Position numbers and translations under genes: made by a program. Shown here one piece after another: positions 3,031-44,863 of a stretch of 64,000 nt of DNA. The DNA is taken from the NCBI RefSeq assembly GCF_055900595.2, contig NZ_CM148325.1; one strand, 5' to 3'. The notes under the pieces were generated by a model that ran no database searches, had not been told where the DNA came from, and saw only the letters and a program-made list of their open reading frames with translations. How positions within the stretch are numbered: position 1 is the stretch's first letter; every line of letters starts with the position of its first letter.

Positions 3031-3106
3031 TGGTGGAGCTATGCGGGATCGAACCGCAGACCTCCTGCGTGCAAAGCAGGCGCTCTCCCAGCTGAGCTAT
3101 AGCCCC
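3031..3106 (-). tRNA. alaV: tRNA-Ala (UGC), rRNA spacer tRNA
   Basis: Reverse complement reads GGGGCTATAGCTCAGCTGGGAGAGCGCCTGCTTTGCACGCAGGAGGTCTGCGGTTCGATCCCGCATAGCTCCACCA (76 nt, CCA encoded). Confidence 0.95.
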
Positions 3107-3148
3107 ATAACATGTAGTTAAAACCTCTTCAAATTTGCGGTGCAAATT

Positions 3149-3225
<77 letters not shown>

Positions 3226-8610: not shown

Positions 8611-9015
8611 ATGCGTGCTTTACCGATCTGTTTAGTAGCACTCATGCTAAGCGGCTGTTCCATGTTAAGCAGATCCCCTGTCGAACCCGTTCAAAGCACT
8701 GCACCCCAGCCGAAAGCGGAGCCTGCAAAACCGAAAGCACCGCGCGCCGCGCCGGTCCGAATTTATACCAATGCAGAAGAATTAGTCGGCAAACCATTCC
8801 GCGATCTCGGTGAAGTCAGTGGCGATTCTTGCCAGGCCTCTAATCAGGACTCTCCGCCGAGCATTCCAACCGCGCGTAAGCGGATGCAAATCAATGCCTC
8901 TAAAATGAAAGCCAATGCGGTATTACTGCATAGCTGCGAAGTTACCAGCGGTACGCCAGGCTGTTATCGTCAGGCTGTATGTATCGGTTCTGCGCTTAAC
9001 ATTACGGCGAAATGA
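8611..9015 (+). CDS. rcsF: Outer-membrane lipoprotein sensor of the Rcs phosphorelay
   Basis: 134-aa ORF; signal peptide with lipobox LSGC; Pro/Ala-rich linker; conserved Cys residues. Confidence 0.93.
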   Translation: MRALPICLVALMLSGCSMLSRSPVEPVQSTAPQPKAEPAKPKAPRAAPVRIYTNAEELVGKPFRDLGEVSGDSCQASNQDSPPSIPTARKRMQINASKMKANAVLLHSCEVTSGTPGCYRQAVCIGSALNITAK

Positions 9016-9719
9016 GCAGTTTCCAGTTCGAGCAAATAGGCGTTATTCACTCGCCCTATAAAGAAAAATTCGCCGTTCCGCGCCAGCCAGGTCTGGTAAA
9101 AAGCGCCAACGGTGAACTGCATCTCATTGCTCCCTACAACCAGGCCGACGCCGTTCGCGGCCTGGAAGCGTTTAGCCATTTATGGATCCTTTTTGTCTTT
9201 CATCAAACAATGGAAGGCGGCTGGCGTCCGACAGTGCGTCCACCGCGCCTCGGCGGTAACGCCAGAATGGGCGTTTTCGCCACACGCTCTACTTTCCGCC
9301 CTAACCCGATTGGTATGTCGCTGGTAGAGCTGAAGGAAGTTATTTGTCATAAAGATAGCGTGATTCTGAAGCTCGGCAGTCTGGATCTGGTCGATGGTAC
9401 GCCGGTGGTAGATATCAAACCGTATCTTCCCTTTGCCGAATCGCTTCCTGATGCCAGTGCCAGCTATGCGCAAAGTGCACCAGCGGCAGAGATGGCGGTG
9501 AGTTTTACCTTAGAGGTCGAAAAGCAGCTTTTGACATTGGAGAAGCGCTATCCGCAGTTAACGCTGTTTATCCGCGAAGTACTGGCGCAGGACCCGCGTC
9601 CAGCCTATCGTAAAGGTGAGGAAACGGGCAAAACCTATGCCGTCTGGCTACATAATTTTAACGTTCGCTGGCGCGTCACCGACGCTGGTTTTGAAGTCTT
9701 TGCGCTGGAACCGCGTTAA
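9012..9719 (+). CDS. trmO: tRNA (adenine37-N6)-methyltransferase (TsaA/YaeB family)
   Basis: 235-aa ORF overlapping the rcsF stop by 4 nt (ATGA); matches K-12 YaeB/TrmO in length and position. Confidence 0.9.
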   Translation: MSSFQFEQIGVIHSPYKEKFAVPRQPGLVKSANGELHLIAPYNQADAVRGLEAFSHLWILFVFHQTMEGGWRPTVRPPRLGGNARMGVFATRSTFRPNPIGMSLVELKEVICHKDSVILKLGSLDLVDGTPVVDIKPYLPFAESLPDASASYAQSAPAAEMAVSFTLEVEKQLLTLEKRYPQLTLFIREVLAQDPRPAYRKGEETGKTYAVWLHNFNVRWRVTDAGFEVFALEPR

Positions 9720-9829
9720 ATTCGCGCCCTTCTCTTTTGACATTTCTTTTGCACTGGTAAACTAAATCACTTTTTTTGTCCCAGGCTCGCCTTGAGCCTG
9801 CTCTACCTTCCAACTGGAACCGTAACAAC

Positions 9830-11548
9830 ATGCGTACTAGCCAATACCTGCTCTCCACTCTTAAGGAGACACCTGCCGACGCCGAGGTGATCAGCCATCA
9901 GCTGATGTTGCGCGCCGGGATGATCCGCAAGCTGGCCTCCGGGTTATACACCTGGCTGCCGACCGGCGTGCGCGTTCTGAAAAAAGTCGAAAACATCGTG
10001 CGTGAAGAGATGAACAACGCCGGTGCGATCGAGGTGTTAATGCCGGTGGTTCAGCCATCTGAACTGTGGCAAGAGAGTGGTCGTTGGGAACAGTATGGCC
10101 CGGAATTGCTGCGTATTGCTGACCGTGGTGACCGTCCGTTCGTACTCGGCCCAACTCATGAAGAAGTGATTACCGACCTGATTCGTAACGAGCTGAGCTC
10201 TTACAAACAGCTGCCGCTGAACTTCTATCAGATCCAGACCAAGTTCCGTGATGAAGTGCGCCCGCGTTTCGGCGTCATGCGTTCCCGCGAATTCCTGATG
10301 AAAGATGCTTACTCTTTCCATACCTCTCAGGAATCCCTGCAGGAAACCTACGATGCAATGTATGCGGCCTACAGCAAAATCTTCAGCCGCATGGGGCTGG
10401 ATTTCCGCGCCGTACAGGCCGACACCGGTTCTATCGGCGGCAGCGCCTCTCACGAATTCCAGGTGCTGGCGCAGAGCGGTGAAGACGATGTGGTCTTCTC
10501 CGACACCTCTGACTATGCAGCGAACATTGAGCTGGCAGAAGCTATCGCGCCGAAAGAACCGCGCGCTGCTGCTACCCAGGAAATGACGCTGGTTGATACG
10601 CCGAACGCGAAAACCATCGCTGAACTGGTAGAACAATTCAATCTGCCGATTGAAAAAACGGTTAAGACTCTGCTGGTTAAAGCCGTTGAAGGCAGTAGCT
10701 TCCCGCTGGTTGCGCTGCTGGTTCGCGGTGACCACGAGCTGAACGAAGTTAAAGCTGAGAAACTGCCGCAGGTTGCAAGCCCGCTGACTTTCGCGACTGA
10801 AGAAGAAATTCGTGCCGTGGTTAAAGCCGGTCCGGGTTCACTGGGTCCGGTAAACATGCCGATTCCGGTAGTAATTGACCGTACTGTTGCGGCGATGAGT
10901 GATTTTGCTGCTGGTGCTAACATCGATGGCAAACACTACTTCGGTATCAACTGGGATCGCGATGTCGCAACCCCGGAAGTTGCGGATATCCGTAACGTAG
11001 TGGCTGGCGATCCAAGCCCGGATGGACAGGGTACGCTGCTGATCAAACGTGGTATCGAAGTCGGTCACATCTTCCAGCTGGGTACTAAGTACTCCGAAGC
11101 ACTTAAAGCCTCCGTTCAGGGTGAAGATGGCCGTAATCAGATCCTGACTATGGGTTGCTACGGTATCGGCGTAACGCGCGTAGTAGCTGCGGCAATTGAG
11201 CAGAACCACGACGAACGCGGCATCGTATGGCCTGACGCTATCGCACCTTTCCAGGTGGCGATTCTGCCGATGAACATGCACAAATCCTTCCGCGTACAGG
11301 AGCTGGCTGAGAAACTGTATAGCGAACTGCGCGCACAGGGTATCGAAGTGCTGCTGGATGACCGCAAACAACGTCCGGGCGTGATGTTTGCTGATATGGA
11401 ACTGATCGGTATTCCGCACACTATCGTGTTGGGCGACCGTAACCTCGACAACGACGATATCGAATACAAATACCGTCGTAACGGTGAGAAACAGTTAATT
11501 AAGACCGGTGACATCGTCGATTATCTGGTGAAACAGATTAAAGGCTGA
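9830..11548 (+). CDS. proS: Prolyl-tRNA synthetase (class II)
   Basis: ORF track gives 9776..11548 (590 aa); the K-12 protein starts [20 protein letters not shown] at the second Met (9830), giving 572 aa. Confidence 0.95.
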
Positions 11549-11554
11549 TGCCAG

Positions 11555-11586
11555 AAAGGGTCCTGAATTTCAGGACCCTTTTTTAC
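11555..11586 (+). terminator. Intrinsic terminator after proS
   Basis: AAAGGGTCCTGAA-ATT-TCAGGACCCTTT perfect hairpin followed by TTTTTT. Confidence 0.8.
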
Positions 11587-11600
11587 ATGGATTGTATAAA

Positions 11601-12425
11601 ATGGATAAACCAAAGGCGTACTGCTGCCTGCTTCTCCCCTGCTTTCTTTTACTTTCGGCCTGTACCGTTGATATCAGCCAACCAGACTCATCAGCCACAG
11701 CGGTAGATGCCAAGGCAAAAACATGGGCAGTCAAATTCCAGCATCAAAGCTCTTTCACCGAACAATCAATAAAAGAAATAACAGAACCTGATCTCAAACC
11801 CGGCGATTTACTGTTCTCCTCAAGCCTCGGGGTAACCTCATTTGGTATCCGCGTCTTCAGCACTTCCTCAGTGAGCCACGTTGCAATCTTTTTGGGAGAT
11901 AATAACGTTGCAGAAGCGACAGGAGATGGCATCCAGATTGTTTCCCTTAAAAAAGCGATGAAGCATAGTGATAAGCTTTTCGTCTTACGAGTCCCGGATC
12001 TTACCCCGCAACAAGCCACAGAAATTACCGCGTTTGCCAATAAAATCAAAGATAGCGGTTATAACTATCGCGGCATTGTCGAATTTATTCCATTTATGGT
12101 GACTCGCCAGATGTGCTCACTGAATCCGTTCTCCGAGGATTTTCGCCAACAGTGCGTCAGCGGCCTGGCGAAAGCGCAGTTAAGCAGTGTGAGCGAAGGA
12201 GACAAAAAGTCGTGGTTTTGTTCGGAATTTGTCACTGATGCATTTGCCAAAGCCGGACATCCGCTTACGCTGGCACAGTCTGGCTGGATTAGCCCTGCCG
12301 ATCTGATGCATATGCGTACTGGCGATGTCTCTGCGTTTAAGCCAGAAACGCAGTTACATTATGTTGGGCACCTGAAGCCAGGAATTTATATTAAAGCGAG
12401 TCGCTTTGTTGGACTGACTCAGTGA
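11601..12425 (+). CDS. yaeF: Lipoprotein, putative C40-family peptidase
   Basis: ORF track 11592..12425; start placed at MDKPK (274 aa); signal peptide with lipobox LLSAC. Confidence 0.85.
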   Translation: MDKPKAYCCLLLPCFLLLSACTVDISQPDSSATAVDAKAKTWAVKFQHQSSFTEQSIKEITEPDLKPGDLLFSSSLGVTSFGIRVFSTSSVSHVAIFLGDNNVAEATGDGIQIVSLKKAMKHSDKLFVLRVPDLTPQQATEITAFANKIKDSGYNYRGIVEFIPFMVTRQMCSLNPFSEDFRQQCVSGLAKAQLSSVSEGDKKSWFCSEFVTDAFAKAGHPLTLAQSGWISPADLMHMRTGDVSAFKPETQLHYVGHLKPGIYIKASRFVGLTQ

Positions 12426-12450
12426 TAAAAGCCTGCCTCGTGCACAAAAT

Positions 12451-12549
12451 GCCGGATGCGGCGTGAGCGCCTTACCCGGCCTACAAAATCTTGCTAATAC
12501 AAAATGTTGCATTATTGGCTGTAGGCCTGATAAGCGCTGCGCATCAGGC
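12451..12549. repeat. BIME: two inverted REP units
   Basis: GCCGGATGCGGCGTGAGCGCCTTACCCGGCCTACA (12451-12485) and the inverted unit TGTAGGCCTGATAAGCGCTGCGCATCAGGC (12520-12549) between convergent yaeF and nlpE. Confidence 0.85.
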
Positions 12550-12580
12550 AATTTTTCGTTTGTTTCTGTCTCACGATGGC

Positions 12581-13291
12581 TTACTGCCCCAAACTACTGC
12601 AATCCTGGTGCGGGTAAAATTTACCTGCCGTATCGGGCGCAAATACTTTGGTCGGCGCACCAGTATCCGGATTAGCCTCAAGCGTAAAGTGACCTTCTAC
12701 TGACAGTAACACTGGTTTCTCGCTGTTGCCGCGGGCAGCCAAATAGCCCCGTTCCAGCTCAGCGTTATTCGCTACCATGAAACGTTTTCCGGTCGCACAA
12801 TCAGTAAAGGTTGCCGCATCAGCCATATAAAAATACATGCCGCGTAGAGTCATCGGCGTCACTGGCAGGCTGGATTTTGCCGGTTCCAGTGTATAGTTGA
12901 ACTGCGATTCGATCGGATTGCCTTCACGATCGAGCATCTCCAGCGCATCTCCTTTCGCCCGATAATATGACTTTTCACCTTTACTGTCGGTTAATACCAG
13001 TTTGTCAGCGGTTCGCGCCCATGTACCGTAGGAGGCGAAAGAGGAAGGTTCTTCACGAGCCCCCAGATAACGCTCATTCATCACCCAGGTTCCATCTTTT
13101 TCGAGGAACAGAGAGGTTTCGATGCCTTCGCAATCAGCACACGGCAGCACGCCGCGCCAGCTTTGCGGCATCGGCTTCAGTTCAGCGGCCTGCGCCGGAG
13201 AAAGCGTATCGACTTCGGCTCGATTATTACATCCCATCAGAGTAAAGAGGCTGATTACAGCCATCGCTGTCACTATCGCTTTTTTCACCAT
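12581..13291 (-). CDS. nlpE: Outer-membrane lipoprotein NlpE (Cpx-activating sensor)
   Basis: 236-aa ORF; lipobox LMGC; CXXC motif (CADC). Confidence 0.93.
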   Translation of the reverse strand: MVKKAIVTAMAVISLFTLMGCNNRAEVDTLSPAQAAELKPMPQSWRGVLPCADCEGIETSLFLEKDGTWVMNERYLGAREEPSSFASYGTWARTADKLVLTDSKGEKSYYRAKGDALEMLDREGNPIESQFNYTLEPAKSSLPVTPMTLRGMYFYMADAATFTDCATGKRFMVANNAELERGYLAARGNSEKPVLLSVEGHFTLEANPDTGAPTKVFAPDTAGKFYPHQDCSSLGQ

Positions 13292-13304
13292 CCATTCCTT
13301 CTTT

Positions 13305-13727
13305 TTATTCCCGACCGCCGCGCACTTTGCCGCGCAACGCCTTCACGCTTGATTTTTGTGCTTTCGATACCAGCCTGCGCTCTTTTGATGCGCGGGTAGG
13401 TCGTGTCGGTCGTCGGGCTTTTTGTTCTGTTGTTAATTCTTTAATCACTGCCACCAGCCGAGCCAGCGCCGCTTCGCGGTTCAGTTCCTGGCTGCGGTAT
13501 TCCTGTGCCTTGATGACTATCACTCCATCGCTGCTAATCAGATGATGGCTGGCAGCGAGCAGGCGCTCTTTGTAATACTCTGGCAGGCTGGACGCTCGAA
13601 TGTCAAAACGCAGATGAATAGCCGTTGAGGTCTTATTCACATGCTGTCCGCCCGCGCCCTGTGCACGAATAGCAGTGATCTCAAACTCACCATCGGGGAT
13701 AGCAACATGTCGGGAAATCATAATCAT
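13305..13727 (-). CDS. arfB: Ribosome-rescue peptidyl-tRNA hydrolase ArfB
   Basis: 140-aa ORF with GGQ motif ([10 protein letters not shown]) and basic C-terminal tail. Confidence 0.94.
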
Positions 13728-14269
13728 GAAGGTTGTTGCCAGGCGATTAAGTTTACTTCCAGATTATTCTTATCATCCGATAACCAAATCACCCCATCCT
13801 GAATCGTTGCCTGCAGCGTCATGGTACGATCGGCAAAGGCGCTCACTTTTGCCAGTTGCTCGTCGTCCAGATACCAGACAGAAAGATTGGCAAACTGCGC
13901 ACATTTGCTCTGATTTTGCTGCCACCAGATTTGCGCCGCCCGACTATTATAGGCAAACAGCGCCACTTCTGCGGCCTGGGTGCAGGCTTTCTTAATCCGC
14001 CGCTCATCCGGCAATCCCAGTTCAATCCACAAATCAATGCCCAGATGATCATTACGCAGCCACGCTTCCGGCTCATCATCGGCACACAAACCTCGGGTAA
14101 ATTGCAGACGTTCATCAGCATATTTCAGCCACGCCAGCAAGCGCAGCATCATGCGCTCCTGGGTTTCTGAAGGATGGCGCGCCAGCGTCAGAGAGGCATC
14201 GAGAAACTGGTTGCGGTCGAGATCGGCCACATTAACCGTCGCTTTATAAATTGTCGCTTTAAGCGCCAT
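13724..14269 (-). CDS. yaeQ: YaeQ family protein (PD-(D/E)XK fold)
   Basis: 181-aa ORF overlapping the arfB start by 4 nt; synteny yaeQ-arfB-nlpE. Confidence 0.9.
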
Positions 14270-14434
14270 AAGAAAACTCCTTTCGAATCAGGAGGCCATT
14301 GTAACGGAATACGTGCAGTTGCGACGCTGATATTGCAGAAATGAGTGTGGTATAGTCACCTTGCGAAACAGAGTTTATCTTCGTAGGCTTAGACTTGCAT
14401 CCACGGTTAAGTCAGAGTGCTGACAGGAGGGCAT

Positions 14435-14635
14435 GTGGAAAAATATTGTGAGTTAATACGCAAGCGGTACGCGGAAATCGCCAGCGGAGACTTAGGATAC
14501 GTTCCGGACGCGCTGGGCTGCGTTTTGAAAGTGCTGAATGAAATGGCTGCCGACGATGCCCTTTCTGAGGCTGTCAGGGAAAAAGCAGCATACGCTGCGG
14601 CAAACTTACTGGTGAGCGATTATGTCAATGAATGA
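14435..14635 (+). CDS. yaeP: UPF0253 small protein YaeP
   Basis: ORF track 14417..14635; a GTG at 14435 is preceded by AGGAGG (14424-14429) and yields the 66-aa protein (M/V)[22 protein letters not shown]... Confidence 0.8.
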
Positions 14636-14882
14636 TACGTATCAACCAATCAATTGTGATGATTACGATAATCTTGAGCTCGCCTGCCAGCATCATTTAA
14701 TGCTGACACTTGAGCTGAAAGATGGCGAAAAACTGCAGGGGAAGGCCAGCGATTTAGTCTCCCGCAAAAATGTGGAATATCTGGTCGTTGAAGCTGCTGG
14801 CGAAACACGCGAGCTACGCCTGGATAAAATTACCAGCTTTAGCCACCCGGAAATTGGTACGGTGGTGGTGAGCGAGTCCTGA
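14628..14882 (+). CDS. rof: Rho-binding antiterminator Rof (YaeO)
   Basis: ORF track 14622..14882; start placed at [36 protein letters not shown] (84 aa); overlaps the yaeP stop by 8 nt. Confidence 0.88.
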
Positions 14883-14891
14883 TTGACTTTC

Positions 14892-14924
14892 GCCGGATGC
14901 GACGTTTGATGCGTCTTATCCGGC
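14892..14924. repeat. REP unit
   Basis: GCCGGATGCGACG...CGTCTTATCCGGC palindromic unit between convergent rof and tilS. Confidence 0.7.
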
Positions 14925-14934
14925 TTTCACTTAA

Positions 14935-16230
14935 CTAAGTGTTTCGCCGCCAGACAAAACTTACGCCATTCTCACCTTCAGCCACACCTTCTTGCGTCAC
15001 AAATACCTCTGCCGCTGCAATCAGCGTTTCGCCATAAAACAGCAGTGGCGTGGTGTCACGCAACCACGGCGGTACGCCCAGTTCCTGCCAGATTTTCTTT
15101 AACTTACGCCCACCATTGCGCCCGACAATATGCAGCAATCCTGGCGCTTTGAAACGCACGCTGACCGCTTCGTCTGCACGCGGAGGGCGAATATCGCCTC
15201 CCGCAGTAAGCTGTACACTTCCCAGCGCCGCCGGTAATTCCAGCGGTTGTAACCACGTCTGCCACGGCACAATGGTTTCGCTTTGCCCAGTGACGGATTT
15301 AATCCACCACAGTTGCGATTGATAGCGGCGGATTTCAAACGCCCCCAAACGTAAACAGGGGGAAGCATCTTCTCGCGCCAGCGCCACTTCCTGCCAGATC
15401 CTCACCAACGCGTCGCGGGAAGGCATCGGTGCATTCTGCCCTGCCAGCCAGCGGCGGATAATCGCCGCGCGACGGGCATCACTCATCGCCAGCATTGGCG
15501 CAATCTGCAGCGTCCCCTGCGGCGTTTGACAGTGTGCTAAATCATCTGCCAGCAGTTCATCCAGCAGGCTCTCTTGCTCAGCACAAAGTGCGGCGCTGCG
15601 GGCCGTTGCTTCGGCAAAATGCGGCCAACGCTGCTGCAATAACGGCACTACGCGTAGGCGCAGGAAGTTACGATCGTATGAGTCGTCCTGATTACTTTCG
15701 TCTTCAATCCAACGTAAACCATGCGCCAACGCCCACTGCTCCAGTTCTCCCCGTGTGCGGGCGAGCAACGGTCGGATCAGCCGCGTTCCGGCAAACTCCG
15801 AGACTTCCGCCATAGCCGAAAGCCCTGCAGGGCCGCTACCACGTTTTAACGCCAGCAGAAACGTTTCACATTGATCGTCGAGATGTTGCGCTGTAACCAG
15901 CACTTCACCAGGTAACAGGGTACGAGCAAATGCCTGATAACGTGCCTGCCGCGCCTGAGCCTCAATACCTAGCCCCTCTTGCGCAAGTTGCACACGCTCA
16001 ACCACCAGCGGCACCTGCCACTGGTGGCAGATGTTCTCGCAATGCATAACCCAGGCATCGGCATTGGCACTTAAACCGTGATGCACATGAATCGCGCGCA
16101 GGGTGACGCCCGGATTTTCCGTCCGCCACTGCACCAACTGATGCAGCAGAACGGTGGAGTCAAGCCCGCCGCTAAAGGCCACCAGAATCTGGCGTGAGAT
16201 GAGAAGTTGTCTATTGAGAGTGAGTGTCAT
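14935..16230 (-). CDS. tilS: tRNA(Ile)-lysidine synthetase
   Basis: 431-aa ORF with PP-loop SGGLDS near N-terminus. Confidence 0.94.
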
Positions 16231-16294
16231 GATGGTGCGATTTTACAGTAGCAATGCCCGGCACGTTACCGGGCAAATATGGCGATGACAAGCC

Positions 16295-16684
16295 TTACTG
16301 CTCATACAGTTCCAACGGCAGTCCGTCCGGATCGTTAAAGAATGTGAAGCGCTTTTGCGTGTAGGGATCGACACGTATGGCTTCACATTTCACGTTATGG
16401 CTTTCAAGGTGCGCCACTGCCGCATCGATATCATCAACGCTAAAAGCCAGATGACGCAGGCCGCAAGCTTCCGGTCGGCTGGGGCGCTCCGGCGGGAACG
16501 GAAATGAGAAAAGCTCAATCACATATTGCCCATTAAGCGCCAAATCCCCTTTCCACGAATCGCGCGCTTCGCGATAGACTTCGCTTTGCAGCGTGAAACC
16601 GAGAATATCGCAGTAGAAAGCTTTGCTCACCGCATAATCCGTCGCAATAATCGCAATATGATGAACTTGTTTTAAACCCAGCAT
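16295..16684 (-). CDS. yaeR: Glyoxalase/VOC-family protein
   Basis: ORF track 16295..16711; start placed at MLGLKQVHHIAII (129 aa), the K-12 length. Confidence 0.85.
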   Translation of the reverse strand: MLGLKQVHHIAIIATDYAVSKAFYCDILGFTLQSEVYREARDSWKGDLALNGQYVIELFSFPFPPERPSRPEACGLRHLAFSVDDIDAAVAHLESHNVKCEAIRVDPYTQKRFTFFNDPDGLPLELYEQ

Positions 16685-28199: not shown

Positions 28200-30650
<2,451 letters not shown>

Positions 30651-30661
30651 CTAACTAACTC

Positions 30662-32014
30662 TCATAACCGAGAGAAATCATTGAAAAGTGCAAGCCCCAT
30701 TAACAGCACCAGCAGAATCGAGCCAATGCGATAACAAAAGTCTTGAACCCGCTCGGATACCGGTCCGCCCTTGATCTTTTCGATCGCAAGGAACAGCAGA
30801 TGCCCCCCATCAAGTACGGGCAACGGAAACAGGTTAATTATCCCTAAGTTCACGCTAATGAGCGCAAGAAACGGCAGGTAATAAACAACCCCGAGTTCCG
30901 CTGTCATCCCAGCCCCCTTGGCGATAGAGATCGGCCCACTGAGGTTGTTCAGTTTCACATCACCGGTGATCAATTTTCCCAGCATACTGACCGTCAGCTT
31001 CATCAGCTGCCACGTTTTGTCCGTGGCTTCGACGATAGCGTTGAACGGCCCATACTGGCGTACAACTTTATACTCATCTGGCAAAGGAATGACTTTCTGC
31101 TCAATACCGACAAAACCAATCGCCTTACCATTACCCGGTTTACTCTCCGGGATTAATGTCAAAGACAAGGGACTCCCCTGTCTTTCGATTTCTAACGCTA
31201 AGGATTTACCCGGGTTATCCCGGACAAGCATCACAAAGGTCACCCACTGCGTTAAGGACTGACCATCGACTTTAACGATCCTGTCGCCTGCTTGCAAACC
31301 TGCCTTGCTTGCGGCCGAGTTTGGCTGCACATTTTCCAGTACAGGTTCAATTTGCGGGCCACGAGGACGAATCCCCAGCGAAGATACCGGATCTTCTTTA
31401 TCAGGCTCAAACGCCCAGTGACGTAAATCGAGCTTTACATCCCGTCGTTGGTCGCTGCCAAATGGCGCTACCGTAATGGTGGTGCTTTCATCGCCAATTT
31501 TATCGACCAACTGCAAACGCACGGCATCCCAATCAGGCGTTTCGATACCATCTACGGCTTTTAGTTCCGTACCTGGTGCAATTTGTGCTTCCGCAGCTAT
31601 CGAATTGGCTGCTATTTCGCCAACCACCGGACGTACGCCAGGTACACCAATAATAAAAACCAGCCAGTAGGCAAAGATAGCAAAAATGAAGTTTGCAACC
31701 GGACCTGCGGCAATAATCGCCGCACGTTGGCCGACAGATTTATTATTGAAGGCATGGTGGCGGAGTTCCGGAACAACCGGTTCTGCGCGCTCATCCAGCA
31801 TTTTGACATAACCGCCCAACGGGATCAGGGCGATGACATATTCGGTGCCTAGCTTATCAGTTCGGCGCCAGAGCGCCTTGCCAAAACCTATTGAGAAACG
31901 CTCAACACGAACACCACAACGCCGGGCAACCCAGAAATGACCAAATTCATGCACGGTGATAAGTACACCCAGTGCAACGATGAACGAAGCCAAATCCCAG
32001 AGAAAACTCAGCAT
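30662..32014 (-). CDS. rseP: Site-2 protease RseP (regulator of sigma-E)
   Basis: ORF track 30662..32059; start placed at [11 protein letters not shown] (450 aa); HEFGH zinc motif and PDZ region. Confidence 0.93.
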
Positions 32015-32025
32015 ATTACCTTCCG

Positions 32026-32883
32026 TTAAAGCGTCCTGAATACCAGTAACAACAAGCAAGCAAAGACCGGTACCGCAGCCGTCAGACTATCAATACGATC
32101 TAAAATACCACCGTGTCCTGGAATTAAATGACCGCTGTCCTTAATTCCTGCTTCACGCTTAAACATACTCTCGGTCAGATCGCCGAGCACTGAGACTAAC
32201 GCTGCGACAATAGAGCAAATGAGTAAGGTGACGGGAGCGATGTCGAGATTCGCCCACATGCCATAACCCCATGAGATTACCGCTGCAGTCGCGAGTCCAC
32301 CGATAAAGCCTTGCCAGGTTTTACCCGGAGAAACCTTCGGTGCCAGCTTATGTTTACCAAACAATTTGCCAAACATATATGCGCCAGAGTCAGCGCCCCA
32401 TACCAGGATCATGACATAGAGCAGCCATATTGCGCCACTGTAATGATTCTCGTCGTAGTGCCAGGCCCGTAACGCCAGCATGCCCCAGAAGAAGGGAACA
32501 ATGGTTAGCACGCCAAAAATAATGCGCAATGTTTTAGAGTTACGCCAGATTGCTGCGGAACCTGGGTAAAACAGCACCAGCAATAGCGCGACAATCCACC
32601 AACCCAGCGAAGCCCAAAGTGAGATTTCAACCAGCGGTTGATGAATATTTCGGTGATATTCCGGCAACAGAAAAAGCATCAGCGCCAACAATAACCCACA
32701 TAACACCGCCAACCATACTCGCTGCGAGCGAGTGGTAAAACCGCTAAGCTGTCCCCATTCCCACGCTGCCAGCATACAGACCACCAGCGTTACAATGGCG
32801 AACCCCACCGGCGGCAACAGAAACAACGCCGCGATGACGACGGGTATTAACACAAAAGCAGATATCAGGCGATACTTCAGCAA
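32026..32883 (-). CDS. cdsA: CDP-diglyceride synthase
   Basis: 285-aa polytopic membrane ORF. Confidence 0.94.
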
Positions 32884-32895
32884 AAGCGACCCCCA

Positions 32896-33657
32896 TCAGG
32901 CTGTTTCATCACCGGGCTCGGTGCCGCCGAAACGACGCTCTCGATTAGCAAAGGCATTTAACGCCCCTTCAAAGTCTTGTTCATCGAAATCGGGCCAGAG
33001 AACATCTGTAAAGTAAAGTTCGGCATAGGCAATTTGCCAAAGCAAAAAGTTACTAATGCGATGCTCCCCCCCAGTCCTAATTACTAAATCTACAGGGGCC
33101 AGTTCATGCATACAGACATGCTGGTTTAGCATCTCTTCATCTATCTGATCTGGTTGCAGGTTTCCTTGCTGCACCTTTTCAGCCAGTTGCCTGACTCCCT
33201 GGACTATATCCCAACGTCCACCGTAGTTCGCCGCAATATTCAGCGTTAGACCGGTATTTCCGGCTGTTAGCGCTTCCGATTTACGAATACGTTCTTGCAA
33301 ACGCGAGTTAAAGCGACTGGTATCGCCAATAATACGCAGACGTACGTTATGTCGGTGCAGGCTTTTTACTTCGCTATCGAGCGCCCAAACAAACAGTTCC
33401 ATTAACGCACTGACTTCCTGCGCTGGTCGGTTCCAGTTTTCACTACTAAAGGCATACAGCGTTAACGCCTCAATACCGTTGTTGGCCGCAAAAGAGACAG
33501 CCCGGCGGACGGATTTTGCCCCGGCTTTATGCCCAAAGGCACGAATCTTCCCTTGCTTTTTTGCCCAGCGACCATTGCCGTCCATAATGATCGCAACATG
33601 ACGACAGCCATGTACTGGCAATTTTTCGCTAAGTGGTTGAGTAGCAGACAACATCAC
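32896..33657 (-). CDS. uppS: Undecaprenyl-diphosphate synthase
   Basis: 253-aa ORF with cis-prenyltransferase motifs (DGNGRWA). Confidence 0.95.
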   Translation of the reverse strand: MMLSATQPLSEKLPVHGCRHVAIIMDGNGRWAKKQGKIRAFGHKAGAKSVRRAVSFAANNGIEALTLYAFSSENWNRPAQEVSALMELFVWALDSEVKSLHRHNVRLRIIGDTSRFNSRLQERIRKSEALTAGNTGLTLNIAANYGGRWDIVQGVRQLAEKVQQGNLQPDQIDEEMLNQHVCMHELAPVDLVIRTGGEHRISNFLLWQIAYAELYFTDVLWPDFDEQDFEGALNAFANRERRFGGTEPGDETA

Positions 33658-33711
33658 GCGTTTCTTATTCCCTGACAGGGTTTACGGTACTCAGGAATAC
33701 TGAAGCCTATA

Positions 33712-33738
33712 CAAAAAAAAGCCGTGTAAAACCACGGC
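33712..33738 (-). terminator. Intrinsic terminator after dxr
   Basis: Minus strand GCCGTGG-TTTTAC-CACGGC hairpin followed by TTTTTTTT. Confidence 0.75.
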
Positions 33739-33841
33739 ATACCTGACCTTATAAGCCAACTACTTATGGTCAGATGGCGCAGACTATATCACTGAAGCCC
33801 TACGCTAACAAATAGCACGACTCTCTGTAGCCGGATTATCC

Positions 33842-35038
33842 TCAGCTTGCGAGACGCGTCACCTCTTTTCTGGCGACTTCACGCGCGTTCGTATCAACAG
33901 ATAACACATCGTCCACGCATTGTGGTTCGCGCATATCCATTTTTTCCAGTACGGATAAATTCAACGCGGCGATATCCGTAAAGCGGATTTGTTGCGCAAG
34001 AAAGGCTGCAACGGTGATTTCGTTTGCGGCATTCAATGCAGTCGTCGCAGCCTGGCCTTGTTCGAACGCGTCCATTGCCAGTTTAAGGCATGGATAGCGA
34101 TCATAATCCGGTGCGGCAAATGTCAACGCACTGAGTTTGCAAAAATCCAGCGGCTTCACACCAGAGTTCACGCGATTCGGCCAGGCCATGGTGTGGGCAA
34201 TTGGCGTACGCATATCCGGTTCACCCAACTGCGCCAGAACACTGCCGTCCTGATAACGCACCATTGAGTGAATCACTGACTGCGGATGAATCAGCACTTC
34301 CATCTGGCTGGCACTGGCGCTAAACAACCAACGCGCTTCAATGTATTCCAGACCTTTGTTCATCATGGTAGCCGAATCGACAGAAATTTTACGCCCCATC
34401 GACCAGTTCGGATGACGGCAGGCTTGATCCGGCGTCATTGTTGCCAAATCGCGCAATGGCGTCTCACGGAAAGGGCCACCAGACCCGGTAAGCAAAATGG
34501 ACACCACGCCATTTTGCTCAAGGTCAGCGTATCCCAGATTATGCTGGATAGGTTGCGGTAAACTCTGAAAAATGGCGTTATGTTCGCTATCGACTGGTAA
34601 CAATTGCGCTTTGCTCTGCTTTACGGCGTCCATAAACAGACGTCCGCAAGTGACCAGTGATTCTTTATTGGCCAGCAAAATGGTTTTACCCGCGCGGATC
34701 GCAGCAAGCGTAGGTAACAGCCCAGCAGCGCCAACAATGGCTGCCATCACCTGATCAACATCCTCAAGCGCTGCCATATCGCAAGCGGCTTGTTGCCCAC
34801 TTAAGACTTCGGTGCGGCTACCCTGTTGCTGTAGCATCGTTTTAAGAAGTTTCGCACTCGCTTCATCGTCCATTACGGCATAGCGGGGAGAGAATTCCAG
34901 GCACTGCTCTACCATGCGAGTGACATTTTTGCCTGCCACCAGCGCAACTACGCGGAAGTGTTCGGGATTATGGCGCACCACGTCCAGCGTGCTGCAACCA
35001 ATCGAGCCGGTCGAGCCCAGAATGGTGAGTTGCTTCAT
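33842..35038 (-). CDS. dxr: 1-deoxy-D-xylulose-5-phosphate reductoisomerase
   Basis: 398-aa ORF with N-terminal NADPH-binding GSTGSIG. Confidence 0.95.
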
Positions 35039-35071
35039 GAAACATCCAGAGTTGAGACAGAATAAAAAGCA

Positions 35072-35113
35072 AAACGCCGCCAGCCGATCCGCAAGGATCT
35101 ACTGAGCGGCGTT
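35072..35113 (-). terminator. Intrinsic terminator after frr
   Basis: Palindrome AACGCCGC...GCGGCGTT; on the minus strand it is followed by a T-rich tract (TTTTGCTTTTT). Confidence 0.6.
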
Positions 35114-35130
35114 TTTTGTCGTTCAAGAAA

Positions 35131-35688
35131 TCAGAACTGCATCAGTTCTGCTTCTTTGTCTGCCAGCGCCGCTTCAATTTTCTTGATTGCAGCATCAGTC
35201 AGTTTCTGTACATCGTCCTGAGAACGGCGATCGTCGTCTTCGCTGATCTCTTTATCTTTCAACAGTGCTTTCACTTTGTCGTTCGCGTCACGACGCACGT
35301 TACGTACTGCAACACGCGCTTGTTCTGCTTCACCACGAACGATTTTGGTCAGATCTTTACGACGTTCTTCCGTCAGCGGCGGCAGCGGAACACGAATGTC
35401 GCTACCCGCAGAGTTCGGGTTCAGGCCAAGATCGGACGCCATAATCGCTTTTTCAACGGCCGGAGACATTGAACGATCAAACACGTTGATTTTCAGAGTA
35501 CGGGAATCTTCTACCGTTACGCTTGCCAGCTGACGCAGCGGCGTCGGCGTGCCGTAATATTCCACGACAATGCCATCCAGCAGGCTGGGAGAAGCACGAC
35601 CCGTGCGTATTTTGCTGATTTGGGTTTTGAACGCTTCTACGCATTTGTCCATGCGTACTTCAGCATCTTTTCTGATATCGCTAATCAC
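35131..35688 (-). CDS. frr: Ribosome recycling factor
   Basis: 185-aa ORF. Confidence 0.96.
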
Positions 35689-35979
35689 GTTACGAATCCT
35701 TGAAAACTTGTCTCAGTCAGACCAGACAGTCACACACAGTGGAAGTGTGCTAAGTATAGCCCTGATTAAACATATTACGGGTAATCGTCTGGATTATTAG
35801 GCTATTTTATTTGCCATTTTGGCACCGGGCAGTGCTCGCCATCCTCACGTACTTGTGTACGCTCCGGTTGCTGCGCGCTGGCCGTGACCAAACTACCTGC
35901 AACAATAACGCCTTATAACCAGACTTACGCCCCCGCGATACTTACGCGGAATCTTACCCTTATTTATCCATCACGGGAA

Positions 35980-36705
35980 TTATTCCGTGATTAAAGTCCC
36001 TTCTTTTTCACCCATTACCACACGGCGCAGCGCACCCGGTTTGTTCATGTTGAAAACACGAATCGGTAATTTATGGTCACGAGCCAGCGTGAAGGCCGCC
36101 AGGTCCATGACTTTCAGCTCTTTTTCCAGCACTTCGCTGTAAGTCAGTTGCTCGTACATCGTTGCGGTTGGATCTTTCGCCGGATCAGCAGTAAACACGC
36201 CGTCAACTTTGGTTGCTTTCAACACCACATCAGCTTCAATTTCGATACCACGCAGGCAAGCTGCAGAGTCGGTGGTAAAGAACGGGTTACCTGTACCGGC
36301 GGAGAGGATCACCACACGATTGTTGCGCAACAGGCTAATCGCTTCTGCCCAGCTGTAGCTGTCGCACACGCCATTCAATGGAATAGCGGACATCAGACGA
36401 GCGTTCACATAGGCGCGGTGCAGTGCATCACGCATTGCCAGGCCGTTCATTACGGTCGCCAGCATCCCCATGTGGTCGCCCACAACGCGGTTCATACCCG
36501 CTTTCGCCAGACCAGCGCCACGGAACAGGTTACCCCCACCAATCACCACACCAACCTGAATACCCAGTTCAACCAGTTCTTTGATTTCCTGAGCCATGCG
36601 ATCCAGTATGCTTGCATCAATACCGAAGCCTTCCGTGCCCTGCAGAGCTTCGCCACTCAACTTAAGCAGAATGCGTTTATAGACGGGTTTTGCATTGGTA
36701 GCCAT
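35980..36705 (-). CDS. pyrH: UMP kinase
   Basis: 241-aa ORF. Confidence 0.96.
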
Positions 36706-36814
36706 GTTTCTTTCCTGAGACTGTCAACGATTGAAATGAATTAATACCGGCGACATTGTACGTCGCTTTTCAGCGCAGCCCCATAAGGGTTAGCTGAATT
36801 TACAAGATGGGCGC

Positions 36815-36842
36815 AAAAAGAAGCCGCCCTCAGGCGGCTCCT
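36815..36842 (-). terminator. Intrinsic terminator after tsf
   Basis: Minus strand GAGCCGCCTGAGGGCGGCTTC hairpin followed by TTTTTG. Confidence 0.75.
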
Positions 36843-36851
36843 TTTCGATAA

Positions 36852-37703
36852 TTAAGACTGCTTGGACATCGCAGCAACTTCTGCTGCAAAGTCAGTCTCA
36901 ACTTTCTCGATGCCTTCACCTACTTCGAAGCGGATGAAGCCAGTCACTTCAGCGTTATGCTCTTTCAGCAGCTGACCAACAGTTTTGCTTGGTTCCATAA
37001 CGAACGGCTGACCGGTCAGAGAAACTTCGCCGGTGAATTTCTTCATGCGGCCTTCAACCATTTTCTCTGCGATTTCTTTCGGCTTACCAGACTGCATCGC
37101 GATATCCAGCTGAACCTGGTATTCTTTCTCTACCACTTCAGCGGAAACGTCTTCCGGTTTGATGAATTCTGGTTTGCTTGCAGCAACGTGCATAGCGATG
37201 TGTTTAACCAGCTCTTCGTCAGCGCCTTTAGCAGCAACCAGAACGCCGATACGCGCACCGTGCTGATAAGAACCCAGAACGTCGCCTTCCAGCGCAGCAA
37301 CGCGGCGAATGTTGATGTTTTCACCGATTTTCGCTACCAGCGCAACACGTTCTTCTTCGAACTGTGCTTTCAGAACTTCAACGTCAGTGATTTTGCCAGC
37401 AACAGCTGCGTCCAGAACTTTGTCTGCGAACGCCTGGAAACCAGCGTCTTTTGCAACGAAGTCAGTCTGGCAGTTAACTTCCAGAATGATGCCGTAGTTG
37501 CCGTCGATTTTGGTTTTGATCACGCCGTCAGCAGCAACGTTGCCTGCTTTTTTCGCTGCTTTAATAGCACCGGACTTACGCATGTTTTCGATTGCCAGCT
37601 CGATGTCGCCGTTAGCTTCAGTCAGTGCTTTTTTGCAATCCATCATGCCTGCGCCAGTACGCTCACGCAGCTCTTTTACCAGGGATGCGGTAATTTCAGC
37701 CAT
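36852..37703 (-). CDS. tsf: Elongation factor Ts
   Basis: 283-aa ORF. Confidence 0.96.
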
Positions 37704-37754
37704 TCTAAAATCCTCGGAGATGTGATCTGCCCGGCATTAAACCGCACAGATATA

Positions 37755-37786
37755 AAAGTGAAAAAGGGGGCCATATGCAGGCCCCC
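37755..37786 (-). terminator. Intrinsic terminator / attenuator between rpsB and tsf
   Basis: Minus strand GGGGGCC-TGCATAT-GGCCCCC hairpin followed by TTTTTCACTTTT. Confidence 0.7.
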
Positions 37787-37809
37787 TAACCAAACGTGTA
37801 CTACCTGGT

Positions 37810-37940
37810 CTATAAGGGCTCTCCCCCTTCATATTTCGCGCCGCAGATGCGTTGTCTTCGCTCGCTCATCCCGGTCACTTACTGATGTAAGCTCCCGGGA
37901 ATTCTCGAGCTTGCCGCCTTTCTGCAACTCGAACTATTTT
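37810..37940. repeat. ERIC (IRU) element
   Basis: Contains GATGTAAGCTCCCGGGAATTC and, on the other strand, AAGTAAGTGACCGGGATGAGCG, close matches to the two ERIC core inverted repeats, in the usual imperfect-palindrome arrangement. Confidence 0.6.
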
Positions 37941-37960
37941 GGGGGAGTTATCAAGCCTTA

Positions 37961-38908
<948 letters not shown>

Positions 38909-39053
38909 TCAGACGATGAATTTTCTATTATAGAAAACGTTCAGTGGCACGTTTGGCGAAATTCAGAATGATTCTCAATTTGCCCGGGTGTGATACCATT
39001 GACGACACTTACATATATATTGTCGGTATCACCGACGCTGATGGACAGAATTA

Positions 39054-39848
39054 ATGGCTATCTCAATCAAGACCCCAGAAGATATCGAAAAAATGCGCGT
39101 CGCTGGCCGACTGGCTGCCGAAGTGCTGGAAATGATCGAACCGTATGTTAAACCGGGCGTCAGCACCGGCGAGCTGGATCGCATCTGTAATGATTACATT
39201 GTTAATGAACAACACGCGGTTTCTGCCTGCCTCGGCTATCACGGCTATCCGAAATCCGTTTGCATCTCTATTAATGAAGTGGTGTGCCACGGTATCCCGG
39301 ACGACGCCAAGCTGCTGAAAGATGGCGATATCGTTAACATTGATGTCACCGTAATCAAAGATGGTTTCCACGGCGACACCTCAAAAATGTTTATCGTCGG
39401 TAAGCCAACCATCATGGGCGAACGTCTGTGCCGCGTAACGCAAGAGAGTCTTTACCTGGCGCTGCGCATGGTAAAACCGGGCATTAATCTGCGCGAAATC
39501 GGCGCGGCAATTCAGAAATTTGTCGAAGCAGAAGGCTTCTCCGTCGTTCGTGAATATTGCGGACACGGTATTGGTCGCGGCTTCCATGAAGAACCGCAGG
39601 TGCTGCATTATGACTCCCGTGAAACCAACGTCGTGCTGAAGCCGGGAATGACCTTCACCATCGAGCCAATGGTCAACGCGGGCAAAAAAGAGATCCGCAC
39701 CATGAAAGATGGCTGGACGGTAAAAACCAAAGATCGCAGCTTGTCTGCACAATATGAGCATACTATTGTGGTGACCGATAACGGCTGCGAAATTCTGACG
39801 CTACGCAAGGATGACACCATCCCGGCGATAATCTCGCACGAAGAATAA
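39054..39848 (+). CDS. map: Methionine aminopeptidase
   Basis: 264-aa ORF; divergent from rpsB. Confidence 0.96.
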   Translation: MAISIKTPEDIEKMRVAGRLAAEVLEMIEPYVKPGVSTGELDRICNDYIVNEQHAVSACLGYHGYPKSVCISINEVVCHGIPDDAKLLKDGDIVNIDVTVIKDGFHGDTSKMFIVGKPTIMGERLCRVTQESLYLALRMVKPGINLREIGAAIQKFVEAEGFSVVREYCGHGIGRGFHEEPQVLHYDSRETNVVLKPGMTFTIEPMVNAGKKEIRTMKDGWTVKTKDRSLSAQYEHTIVVTDNGCEILTLRKDDTIPAIISHEE

Positions 39849-39853
39849 GATGA

Positions 39854-39877
39854 AGCCGGCGAATGCCGGCTTTTTTA
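39854..39877 (+). terminator. Intrinsic terminator after map
   Basis: AGCCGGC-GAAT-GCCGGCT hairpin followed by TTTTTT. Confidence 0.8.
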
Positions 39878-39891
39878 ATACGATAATTTAA

Positions 39892-42582
<2,691 letters not shown>

Positions 42583-42612
42583 TGTGTTTACTGATATGAA
42601 AAGAGTTTAACA

Positions 42613-43437: not shown

Positions 43438-43448
43438 AAGTCAGTACA

Positions 43449-43476
43449 CGGGCAGCATGAAGCTGCCCGTTTTTTT
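43449..43476 (+). terminator. Intrinsic terminator after dapD
   Basis: CGGGCAGC-ATGAA-GCTGCCCG hairpin followed by TTTTTTT. Confidence 0.8.
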
Positions 43477-43489
43477 ACAGGGATGAATG

Positions 43490-44850: not shown

Positions 44851-44863
44851 TGTCATTCTGTGG

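What the first reader, a model, noticed from the sequence alone, without database searches (positions are those of the whole stretch)
12426..12580. BIME between convergent yaeF and nlpE, possibly shorter than in K-12
Two oppositely oriented REP units are present. The intergenic distance here is 155 bp, whereas I recall about 199 bp in K-12; if that recollection is right, this strain carries one fewer REP unit. REP copy-number differences are typical strain markers and hint this is not K-12 itself.
Basis: partly seen in the sequence, partly recalled or inferred. Interest (0 to 1): 0.2.

Follow-up and report, generated by a model that had tools for sequence, protein, structure and literature searches.

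The report
Ordinary BIME-1 repeat between yaeF and nlpE
The 155-base gap between the yaeF and nlpE genes holds a standard, long-known E. coli repeat element (a BIME-1: two opposed REP hairpins around a conserved linker); it is 44 bases shorter than in K-12, but K-12 also has two REPs, arranged differently.

Summary
yaeF (+) stops at 12425 and nlpE (-) at 12581, leaving 155 bp with two opposed REP units.

The element is a canonical BIME-1: Z1-type REP 12450-12484, L linker 12485-12519, Y REP 12520-12550, conserved T-rich tail to 12562. It aligns end to end with BIME-1 copies at other E. coli loci, and every E. coli genome has at least 32 matching places.

The interpretation "one fewer REP than K-12" is wrong. 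K-12 also has two intact REPs, and only the Z unit is shared. K-12 gained about 66 bp carrying another Y REP on the yaeF side and lost 22 bp of the nlpE-side Y hairpin (+66 -22 = +44).

The 155-bp form is in about 35-40% of complete E. coli genomes and, at exactly 155 bp, in three other Escherichia species, so it is probably ancestral. Other alleles:
- 220 bp, three REPs, rare
- 173 bp
- 30 bp, a plain hairpin with no REP
- an IS621 insertion in the Y REP, about 12%

The window is not K-12. It is 100% identical to strain Z0117EC0005 and about 94% to K-12 around this locus.

Verdict: known kind of element, ordinary polymorphism, low interest.

The parts
11601..12425 (+). yaeF (permuted papain-like C92 / NlpC-P60 enzyme), the upstream convergent gene; stop TGA at 12423-12425
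   Evidence: ORF. Pfam PF05708 and PF00877. PGAP annotation of the identical record.
12426..12449 (.). 24-nt leader between the yaeF stop and the first REP (TAAAAGCCTGCCTCGTGCACAAAA). It is shared by all 155-bp alleles, including those of other Escherichia species. In K-12 an ~88-nt segment containing a third REP stands in its place.
   Evidence: Alignment.
12450..12484 (+). Z1-type REP unit. The + strand ends in CCTAC, so it is the 'iREP' orientation in the Ton-Hoang convention. It folds as a hairpin on either strand. On the nlpE transcript it is followed by AUUUUGUG.
   Evidence: 3 substitutions in 35 against the published TGCCGGATGCGGCGTAAACGCCTTATCCGGCCTAC. Hairpin -16.6 kcal/mol on the + strand and -22.4 on the - strand. 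Sub-threshold Rfam naRNA4 hit, 33.5 bits.
12485..12519 (.). L linker of BIME-1 (AAAATCTTGCTAATACAAAATGTTGCATTATTGGC), homologous to the conserved long linker that frequently carries an IHF site. Here the core reads AATACAAAATGTTG where most copies read AATTCAA(A/T)AT(A/G)TTG.
   Evidence: End-to-end alignment with the glyA-yphH, mscS-fbaA and fepA-entD copies. Definition in PMC3333891. The IHF consensus WATCAANNNNTTR is matched only with 1-2 mismatches, which is chance level.
12520..12550 (-). Y REP unit. The + strand begins (T)GTAGGCCTGAT. Its hairpin is followed on the + strand by AAUUUUUCGUUUG, which looks like an intrinsic terminator for yaeF. It contains the exact IS621 target ATCAGGCCTAC at 12521-12531 (-).
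   Evidence: IS621 target from PMC11208160. IS621 is found inserted at exactly this point in other strains.
12551..12562 (.). Conserved T-rich tail of the element (ATTTTTCGTTTG). It is also conserved in BIME-1 copies at other loci, so it is part of the repeat.
12563..12580 (.). Locus-specific spacer (TTTCTGTCTCACGATGGC) up to the nlpE stop codon.
12581..13291 (-). nlpE (Cpx-activating outer-membrane lipoprotein), the downstream convergent gene.

Best explanation
The interval holds one copy of BIME-1 (also called RIP or RIB), a dispersed E. coli repeat. It consists of a Z1-type REP and a Y REP in inverted orientation around the conserved long linker L, plus a short T-rich tail.

Shown here:
- It belongs to the repeat family.
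- It has sat at this locus since before E. coli split from its cryptic-clade relatives.
- K-12 carries a rearranged derivative with a REP-bearing segment gained on one side and a REP hairpin lost on the other.
- The Y REP is a site that IS621 actually uses in nature.

Inferred, not shown:
- On RNA the element supplies the 3'-end structures of both convergent transcripts. For yaeF this is the Y hairpin followed by a U-run. For nlpE it is the Z hairpin followed by AUUUUGUG. Alternatively Z pairs with Y in one long hairpin. Either way the structures would stop or slow transcription and block 3'-to-5' exonucleases.
- On DNA the L linker may bind IHF.

The length difference from K-12 is a neutral or nearly neutral structural polymorphism of a kind that is normal for REP/BIME loci.
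For: Family membership:
- Both REPs are within 3 substitutions of published REP sequences.
- The whole 106-nt Z-L-Y unit matches paralogous loci at 84-86% over 99% of its length in K-12 and other strains.
- It aligns column by column with the glyA-yphH, mscS-fbaA and fepA-entD copies, including linker and tail.
- The architecture fits the published definition of BIME-1: z1 plus y, single copy, long conserved L linker (PMC3333891).

Age and polarity:
- Exactly 155 bp and the same architecture occur in E. whittamii, Escherichia sp. E1V33 and Escherichia sp. MOD1-EC7003.
- A 220-bp three-REP allele exists in strain 1919D3, as predicted for the intermediate. K-12 (199 bp) is that allele minus about 22 bp of the Y hairpin. 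The 173-bp allele is that allele minus Z and the 5' part of L.

Position of a terminator:
- Relatives without the BIME carry a single G+C-rich hairpin flanked by A and T runs in the same place. These are E. albertii, Citrobacter, Salmonella and the 30-bp E. coli allele.
- The simple terminator scan found no terminator-like site in the 155 bp.

Folding:
- Each REP folds at -13 to -22 kcal/mol.
- The whole interval folds better than shuffles, z = -3.1 on the + strand and -4.8 on the - strand.

Published roles of REPs as terminators, mRNA stabilisers, IHF/gyrase/Pol I sites and IS targets: PMC3333891 and PMC1525189.
Against: - No functional data exist for this locus.
- The simple terminator scan found nothing, because the REP stems are interrupted and the U-runs are short.
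- The IHF-like core in this window carries a T-to-A change relative to nearly all other copies, and matches the IHF consensus only at chance level.
- Across seven orthologous copies there is no compensatory substitution in either hairpin (0 of 22 pairs). The few stem changes break or wobble pairs. The hairpins are therefore kept by sequence conservation, or by a common origin, not demonstrably by selection on structure.
- About 10% of E. coli genomes do without any REP here (30-bp allele), and K-12 and the 173-bp allele each lack one of the two REPs. Neither REP is indispensable.
Confidence: 0.9

Rival explanations
1. One reading: the window has lost one REP unit relative to K-12, a simple copy-number difference in a tandem BIME array.
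For: The interval is 44 bp shorter than in K-12, roughly the size of one REP. [quoted passage not shown]
Against: Both alleles carry two intact REPs, and only Z is shared. The 44 bp is the net of about +66 bp and -22 bp in K-12. This is a BIME-1, which occurs as single copies and not as arrays. Three other Escherichia species have the 155-bp form, so the change happened on the K-12 side.
Confidence: 0.03
2. The palindromes are just locus-specific bidirectional intrinsic terminators, not members of a mobile repeat family.
For: They sit between convergent genes where relatives have a plain terminator hairpin. The Y hairpin is followed by a U-run.
Against: There are at least 32 matching places in every genome. 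Full-length paralogs exist at unrelated loci, with conserved linker and tail. Both units are near-identical to published REP sequences. The simple terminator scan finds none here.
Confidence: 0.02
3. The interval encodes a REP-derived small RNA of the naRNA4 type (a nucleoid-associated RNA that works with HU), or a small protein from one of the 65-70 aa ORFs that cross it.
For: Rfam naRNA4 (RF02564) matches the Z REP on the - strand at 33.5 bits, E = 2e-4. ORFs at 12354-12551 (-), 12463-12675 (+) and 12491-12703 (+) are listed mechanically.
Against: The Rfam score is far below the gathering score of 59.5 bits. It covers only one REP hairpin, which is what any REP would give. The ORFs run through REP palindromes into the opposite strand of yaeF or nlpE. 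They cannot be conserved in the 30-, 173- and 199-bp alleles, which delete or replace parts of them. One weak promoter-like site (9 of 12) lies upstream inside yaeF at 12365-12392 (+), against 0.5 expected by chance.
Confidence: 0.04

Closest known systems
BIME-1 (also RIP / RIB: repetitive or reiterative IHF-binding BIME) of E. coli
   Same: z1-type REP plus y REP in inverted orientation. Single copy at the locus. Long conserved L linker. Located at the 3' ends of transcription units. Aligns end to end with the copies at glyA-yphH, mscS-fbaA and fepA-entD (definition in PMC3333891).
   Different: There are a few lineage-specific substitutions. One is T-to-A in the AATTCAA core of the L linker. 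Another is a T-to-C change that turns an A-T stem pair of the Z REP into an A·C mismatch. IHF binding was not tested.
The K-12 MG1655 yaeF-nlpE intergenic region (199 bp)
   Same: Same locus, same Z REP, same L linker, same T-rich tail and same flanking genes.
   Different: K-12 has an extra segment of about 66 bp on the yaeF side. It contains a long Y REP preceded by what looks like half a Z REP and a short G-rich linker, that is, a truncated BIME-2-like unit. K-12 has lost 22 bp of the nlpE-side Y hairpin. The result is a different pair of REPs, not one more.
BIME-2 (z2 plus y, short linker, often tandem)
   Same: Built from the same kinds of REP. One example lies in the same window at 54936-55025 between fhuB and hemL.
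   Different: BIME-2 has a short (about 14 nt) non-conserved linker, the long form of the Y REP, and often occurs in tandem arrays. The yaeF-nlpE element has the 35-nt conserved L linker and the short Y REP.
REPINs (REP doublets forming hairpins) mobilised by RAYT / TnpA_REP
   Same: Two inverted REPs that can pair with each other into one long hairpin. Presumed non-autonomous elements dependent on a single-copy Y1 HUH transposase (PMC3333891, PMC2817692).
   Different: No tnpA_REP gene was looked for or seen near this locus. Mobility of this copy is not shown. It has been static at this site across several Escherichia species.

Membership tests
REP (repetitive extragenic palindrome) of E. coli | 30-40 nt imperfect palindrome with the conserved tetranucleotide GTAG/CTAC at the foot of the stem | tested here: met
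   Z unit 12450-12484 ends in CCTAC. Y unit 12520-12550 begins (T)GTAGG. Both fold as interrupted hairpins.
REP (repetitive extragenic palindrome) of E. coli | Sequence close to the y, z1 or z2 consensus | tested here: met
   3 substitutions in 35 against the published Z-type sequence and 3 in 30 against the published short Y sequence (sequences from PMC11208160).
REP (repetitive extragenic palindrome) of E. coli | High copy number, extragenic | tested here: met
This copy lies wholly between two stop codons.
BIME-1 / RIP | One z1 and one y REP in inverse orientation, as a single copy at the locus | tested here: met
   There is no tandem repetition in the 155 bp. The assignment to z1 and not z2 rests on association with the L linker and on GTGA in the loop as in the aligned BIME-1 copies. 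The z1 and z2 consensus figures themselves could not be read (figures are not held).
BIME-1 / RIP | Long, well conserved L linker between the two REPs | tested here: met
   The 35-nt linker aligns without gaps to the L linkers at glyA-yphH, mscS-fbaA and fepA-entD. Invariant blocks are AAAA..TGC.AAT.CAA.AT.TTGCA.
BIME-1 / RIP | IHF binding to the L linker | not testable with these tools
   Only consensus matching was possible. The best matches to WATCAANNNNTTR have 1-2 mismatches, which is chance level. This lineage has ATACAA where other copies have ATTCAA.
IS621 natural target site | 11-nt sequence ATCAGGCCTAC within a REP | tested here: met
   Exact match at 12521-12531 (-), the only one in the 64-kb window. 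Other strains carry IS621 at this very position, with junctions TGTAG|ATACTGTT and ATACAAG|GCCTGAT. Target sequence from PMC11208160.
Intrinsic (Rho-independent) terminator | Uninterrupted G+C-rich stem, short loop, then a run of at least 5 U in 8 | tested here: inconclusive
   The consensus scan found none in 12200-12800. By eye, and by folding, the Y hairpin is followed by AAUUUUUCGUUUG and the Z hairpin (- strand) by AUUUUGUG, but the stems are interrupted.
naRNA4 (Rfam RF02564) | Score at or above the family's gathering threshold | tested here: not met
   33.5 bits against a gathering score of 59.5.

The most novel reading that the evidence does not exclude
The yaeF-nlpE gap may be a small natural record of REP dynamics. 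It carries one allelic series of 30, 155, 220, 199 and 173 bp, plus an IS621-bearing form of 1433 bp. Whole REP-bearing segments are gained in it, and individual REP hairpins are removed almost exactly at the foot of the stem. This could reflect TnpA_REP-type cleavage at CC|T sites and not random deletion. The different alleles might also set different 3'-end stability for nlpE, the Cpx envelope-stress activator.
Probability: 0.15. Interest if true: 0.3.

Novelty: already known. Interest (0 to 1): 0.08.

Why it matters
It matters little. It confirms that the window comes from a non-K-12 E. coli lineage and documents a normal REP/BIME polymorphism.

Three modest points are useful:
- Interval length alone misjudges REP content. 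The same count of REPs is present, but they are different REPs.
- The K-12 reference carries the derived arrangement at this locus.
- The Y REP here is a natural IS621 (bridge-RNA recombinase) landing site. It is occupied in roughly one in eight complete E. coli genomes, which may interest people who map natural IS621 targets.

Tried and rejected
- Consensus terminator and promoter scan of 12200-12800 found no terminator-like site and one weak promoter-like site inside yaeF. It did not help with the 3'-end question.
- Rfam scan at a permissive E-value gave only a sub-threshold naRNA4 hit, explained by REP similarity.
- Covariation test on seven orthologous copies found no compensatory change. 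It is uninformative because 15 of 22 pairs never vary.
- IHF consensus matching gave chance-level matches only.
- I checked whether the MG1655 RefSeq record annotates REP features in this interval. None is listed, so the K-12 REP count rests on my own alignment. My first coordinates for MG1655 were wrong and were corrected.
- A literature search for yaeF + nlpE + REP found no paper.
- I considered that the 24-nt leader of the 155-bp allele (…GCCAGCCTCG…) is a remnant of the K-12 Y' REP (…GCCAGCGTCG…). I rejected it as unproven. It is a 10-mer with one mismatch, about 0.06 expected by chance on my rough estimate, and MAFFT does not align the two segments convincingly.
- I considered that the leader keeps the left arm of the 30-bp allele's hairpin (AAAGCCGG against AAAGCCAG or AAAGCCTG). 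This is suggestive only, because no matching right arm is found.
- Exact allele counts were not obtainable because the tool lists at most 60 rows. Frequencies are estimated from two evenly spaced samples of the ranking (40 and 60 rows), plus one exact count: 2167 of 5426 genomes have one place covering at least 80% of the window query, which corresponds to the 155- and 173-bp alleles.

Full report
**1. What is in the sequence**

yaeF runs on the + strand and ends with TGA at 12423-12425. nlpE runs on the - strand and ends with TAA at 12581-12583. The interval 12426-12580 is therefore 155 bp between convergent genes.

The gene identities hold. Pfam gives Peptidase_C92 and NLPC_P60 for the first protein and NlpE plus NlpE_C for the second. 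The RefSeq record that is 100% identical over this stretch, NZ_CP098223.1 (strain Z0117EC0005), annotates them as yaeF and nlpE with a 155-bp gap.

**2. The two REP units**

The inverted-repeat search finds two nested arm pairs, 12446-12460 with 12540-12554 and 12471-12485 with 12520-12534. These are the two halves of two REPs facing each other.

- The unit at 12450-12484 (TGCCGGATGCGGCGTGAGCGCCTTACCCGGCCTAC) differs at 3 of 35 positions from the Z-type REP sequence quoted in PMC11208160.
- The unit at 12520-12549, read on the - strand (GCCTGATGCGCAGCGCTTATCAGGCCTACA), differs at 3 of 30 positions from the short Y REP quoted there.

Each folds as an interrupted hairpin of -13 to -22 kcal/mol. 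On either strand the two can also pair with each other into one long hairpin across the linker. The whole interval folds better than shuffled controls, z = -3.1 on the + strand and -4.8 on the - strand.

**3. Which kind of element**

Between the REPs lie 35 nt (12485-12519), and after the Y REP a T-rich tail, ATTTTTCGTTTG (12551-12562).

A sensitive BLAST of the 106-nt Z-linker-Y unit against 5,426 complete E. coli genomes gave these results:
- A place covering at least 80% of the query in 5425 genomes.
- In genomes whose own yaeF-nlpE allele lacks the full unit (K-12, for example), the best match was a paralogous locus at about 84-86% identity over 99% of the query.

I fetched three such paralogs: glyA-yphH and mscS-fbaA in K-12 lineage strains, and fepA-entD in an O145 strain. 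They align with the window element without gaps through both REPs, the linker and the tail.

This is the published definition of BIME-1. [quoted passage not shown] I could not read the z1 and z2 consensus figure. The z1 call therefore rests on the association with L and on identity with the Z units of the aligned BIME-1 copies.

**4. Comparison with K-12**

In MG1655, nlpE ends at 215979 and yaeF starts at 216179, so the gap is 199 bp (the same in another K-12 lineage genome).

The alignment shows what the 44 bp are. From the yaeF side K-12 reads:
- a different leader, TAAAGTAAATGCCTTATCCGCCTTAAGGTATGAGGGGGGT
- a long Y REP, TGTAGGCATGATAAGACGCGCCAGCGTCGCATCAGGCG
- a short spacer
- the same Z REP
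- the same L linker
- only TTCTGGCCTG where the window has the whole Y REP
- the shared tail, TTTTGCGTTTG

So K-12 has two intact REPs, as the window does, but only Z is orthologous. Compared with the 155-bp form, K-12 has about +66 bp on one side and -22 bp on the other. "One fewer REP unit" is not what separates them.

**5. The allele series and its polarity**

Sampling the ranking of all genomes and fetching representatives gave six forms.

| Form | Length | Content | Where found and estimated share |
|---|---|---|---|
| A | 154-155 bp | Z-L-Y | the window, strains W2-5 and Ecol_656; about 33-38% |
| A + IS621 | 1433 bp in the one copy measured (AR_0119) | A with IS621 in the Y REP | about 12% |
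| B | 199 bp | Y'-Z-L-stub | K-12, O157:H7; about 33-35% |
| C | 173 bp | Y', part of L, Y; Z deleted | about 3% |
| D | 30 bp | no REP; perfect 12-bp hairpin GAAAGCCGGAG-AATG-CTCCGGCTTTC, -25 to -26 kcal/mol | about 10% |
| F | 220 bp | Y'-Z-L-Y, three REPs | top hit only of a synthetic query I built to test for it; strain 1919D3 |

One exact number is available. 2167 of 5426 genomes have a single place covering at least 80% of the 555-bp window query, which corresponds to forms A and C.

F is the predicted intermediate. B is F minus about 22 bp of the Y hairpin. C is F minus Z and the 5' part of L.

For polarity I fetched the nlpE neighbourhood from one genome per species. E. whittamii, Escherichia sp. 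E1V33 and Escherichia sp. MOD1-EC7003 all have form A at exactly 155 bp. Form A is therefore most simply the ancestral state for E. coli and these relatives, and K-12 is derived.

E. albertii, Salmonella and most Citrobacter lack yaeF. They have a plain terminator-like hairpin between nlpE and proS. Citrobacter braakii has yaeF with such a hairpin and no REP. Klebsiella michiganensis also has yaeF and no REP, but there yaeF follows nlpE almost directly, with no hairpin between them.

**6. How it most likely works**

Shown:
- Membership in the BIME-1 family.
- Long residence at this site.
- Stepwise gain and loss of REPs in some lineages.
- Use of the Y REP as an IS621 target.

Inferred: the element provides the 3'-end structures for both convergent mRNAs.
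- Reading from yaeF, the Y hairpin is followed by AAUUUUUCGUUUG.
- Reading from nlpE, the Z hairpin is followed by AUUUUGUG.
- The element occupies the place where relatives without it have a bidirectional terminator hairpin.
- The scan found no other terminator-like site in the gap.

Published work attributes transcription termination, mRNA stabilisation, and IHF, gyrase and Pol I binding to REPs and BIMEs (PMC3333891; PMC1525189).

Against a strong functional claim:
- The terminator scan is negative.
- The IHF-like core in this lineage reads ATACAA where other copies read ATTCAA, and matches the IHF consensus only at chance level.
- Seven orthologous copies show no compensatory change in 22 stem pairs, and stem substitutions break pairs.
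- Natural alleles lack either REP, or both.

I put identity as BIME-1 at about 0.95 and the 3'-end role at about 0.5.

**7. IS621**

In strains AR_0119 and 210205630 an IS110-family IS621 transposase gene lies in this gap. In the AR_0119 copy, which I read, the junctions are …GCTGTAG|ATACTGTT… and …ATACAAG|GCCTGATAAG…. The element thus sits inside the Y REP at the published natural target ATCAGGCCTAC (PMC11208160). The window carries that exact 11-mer once in its 64 kb, at 12521-12531 on the - strand, and it is unoccupied.

**8. Provenance**

- The window is 100.0% identical over 20 kb to NZ_CP098223.1. It is about 97.5% identical to K-12 and to nearly all other complete E. coli genomes, and only 10 genomes reach 99%.
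- Around yaeF-nlpE it is about 94% identical to K-12.
- It is about 93-94% identical to the three cryptic-clade representatives and about 91% to E. albertii.

It is certainly not K-12. It belongs to a rare, deep-branching lineage that RefSeq labels E. coli.

**9. Verdict**

The specific interpretation (one fewer REP) is not supported. The general points (BIME, shorter than K-12, strain marker, not K-12) are correct. The element is a textbook BIME-1 and the polymorphism is of a known kind. Interest is low.

Noticed in passing
window 12521-12531 (-); L010 3201-4633; L095 1126-2558: In about 12% of sampled complete E. coli genomes an IS621 element (IS110 family, bridge-RNA recombinase) is inserted in the nlpE-side Y REP of the 155-bp allele. 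It sits exactly at the published target ATCAGGCCTAC. The window has the intact, unoccupied target, the only exact copy in its 64 kb.
   Followed up: partly
window 54936-55025 (+): A second BIME lies between convergent fhuB and hemL. It has a Z-type REP (GTCGGATGCGGCGTAAACGCCTTATCCGACCTAC), a 14-nt linker and a long Y REP, that is, a BIME-2-like unit. Both REPs carry paired G/C-to-A/T-type changes in the outer stem (GTCGGAT…ATCCGAC; GGCCCGAT…ATCGGGC).
   Followed up: partly
whole window; tested on 9776-11548, 9001-16500 and 30000-50000: The window is 100.0% identical over 20 kb to NZ_CP098223.1 (E. coli Z0117EC0005, dog, South Korea) and 99.9% over the 3.6 kb around yaeF-nlpE. It is only about 97.5% identical to K-12 and almost all other complete E. 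coli genomes, and about 94% in the proS-yaeF-nlpE-arfB-yaeQ stretch. Only 8-15 of 5,426 genomes reach 99%. This is a deep-branching lineage, possibly a cryptic clade labelled E. coli. The lineage was not identified.
   Followed up: partly
window 11601-12425; L006, L010, L094, L095, L016, L018: yaeF looks dispensable. It is annotated as frameshifted in several E. coli strains (W2-5, AR_0119, 1919D3, 210205630). It is reduced to a 3' stub next to the BIME in Escherichia sp. MOD1-EC7003. It is absent between nlpE and proS in E. albertii, Salmonella and most Citrobacter. In the window it is intact.
   Followed up: no
L009 501-530; L014 1079-1108: About 10% of E. coli genomes, and the genome-collection representative 'E. 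coli E69', have only 30 bp between yaeF and nlpE. This is a perfect 12-bp hairpin (GAAAGCCGGAG AATG CTCCGGCTTTC) with no REP. Its first bases (AAAGCCGG) resemble the start of the 155-bp allele's leader (AAAGCCAG or AAAGCCTG). Whether this is the pre-BIME state or a replacement is open.
   Followed up: partly
L001 1701-1740 (K-12 allele): The extra K-12 segment begins with AATGCCTTATCCGCCTTAAGG. This resembles the 3' half of a Z REP (ACGCCTTATCCGGCCTACA). A G-rich short linker and a long Y REP follow. The inserted piece therefore looks like a truncated BIME-2 unit.
   Followed up: no
window 3031-3225 (-): tRNA-Ala(TGC) and tRNA-Ile(GAT) lie back to back, the spacer tRNAs of a ribosomal RNA operon. 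An exact CAGGCCTAC at 3151-3159 lies inside tRNA-Ile and is not a REP.
   Followed up: yes
window 12440-12481 (-): Sub-threshold Rfam hit to naRNA4 / CssrE (RF02564), 33.5 bits against a gathering score of 59.5, on the Z REP.
   Followed up: yes
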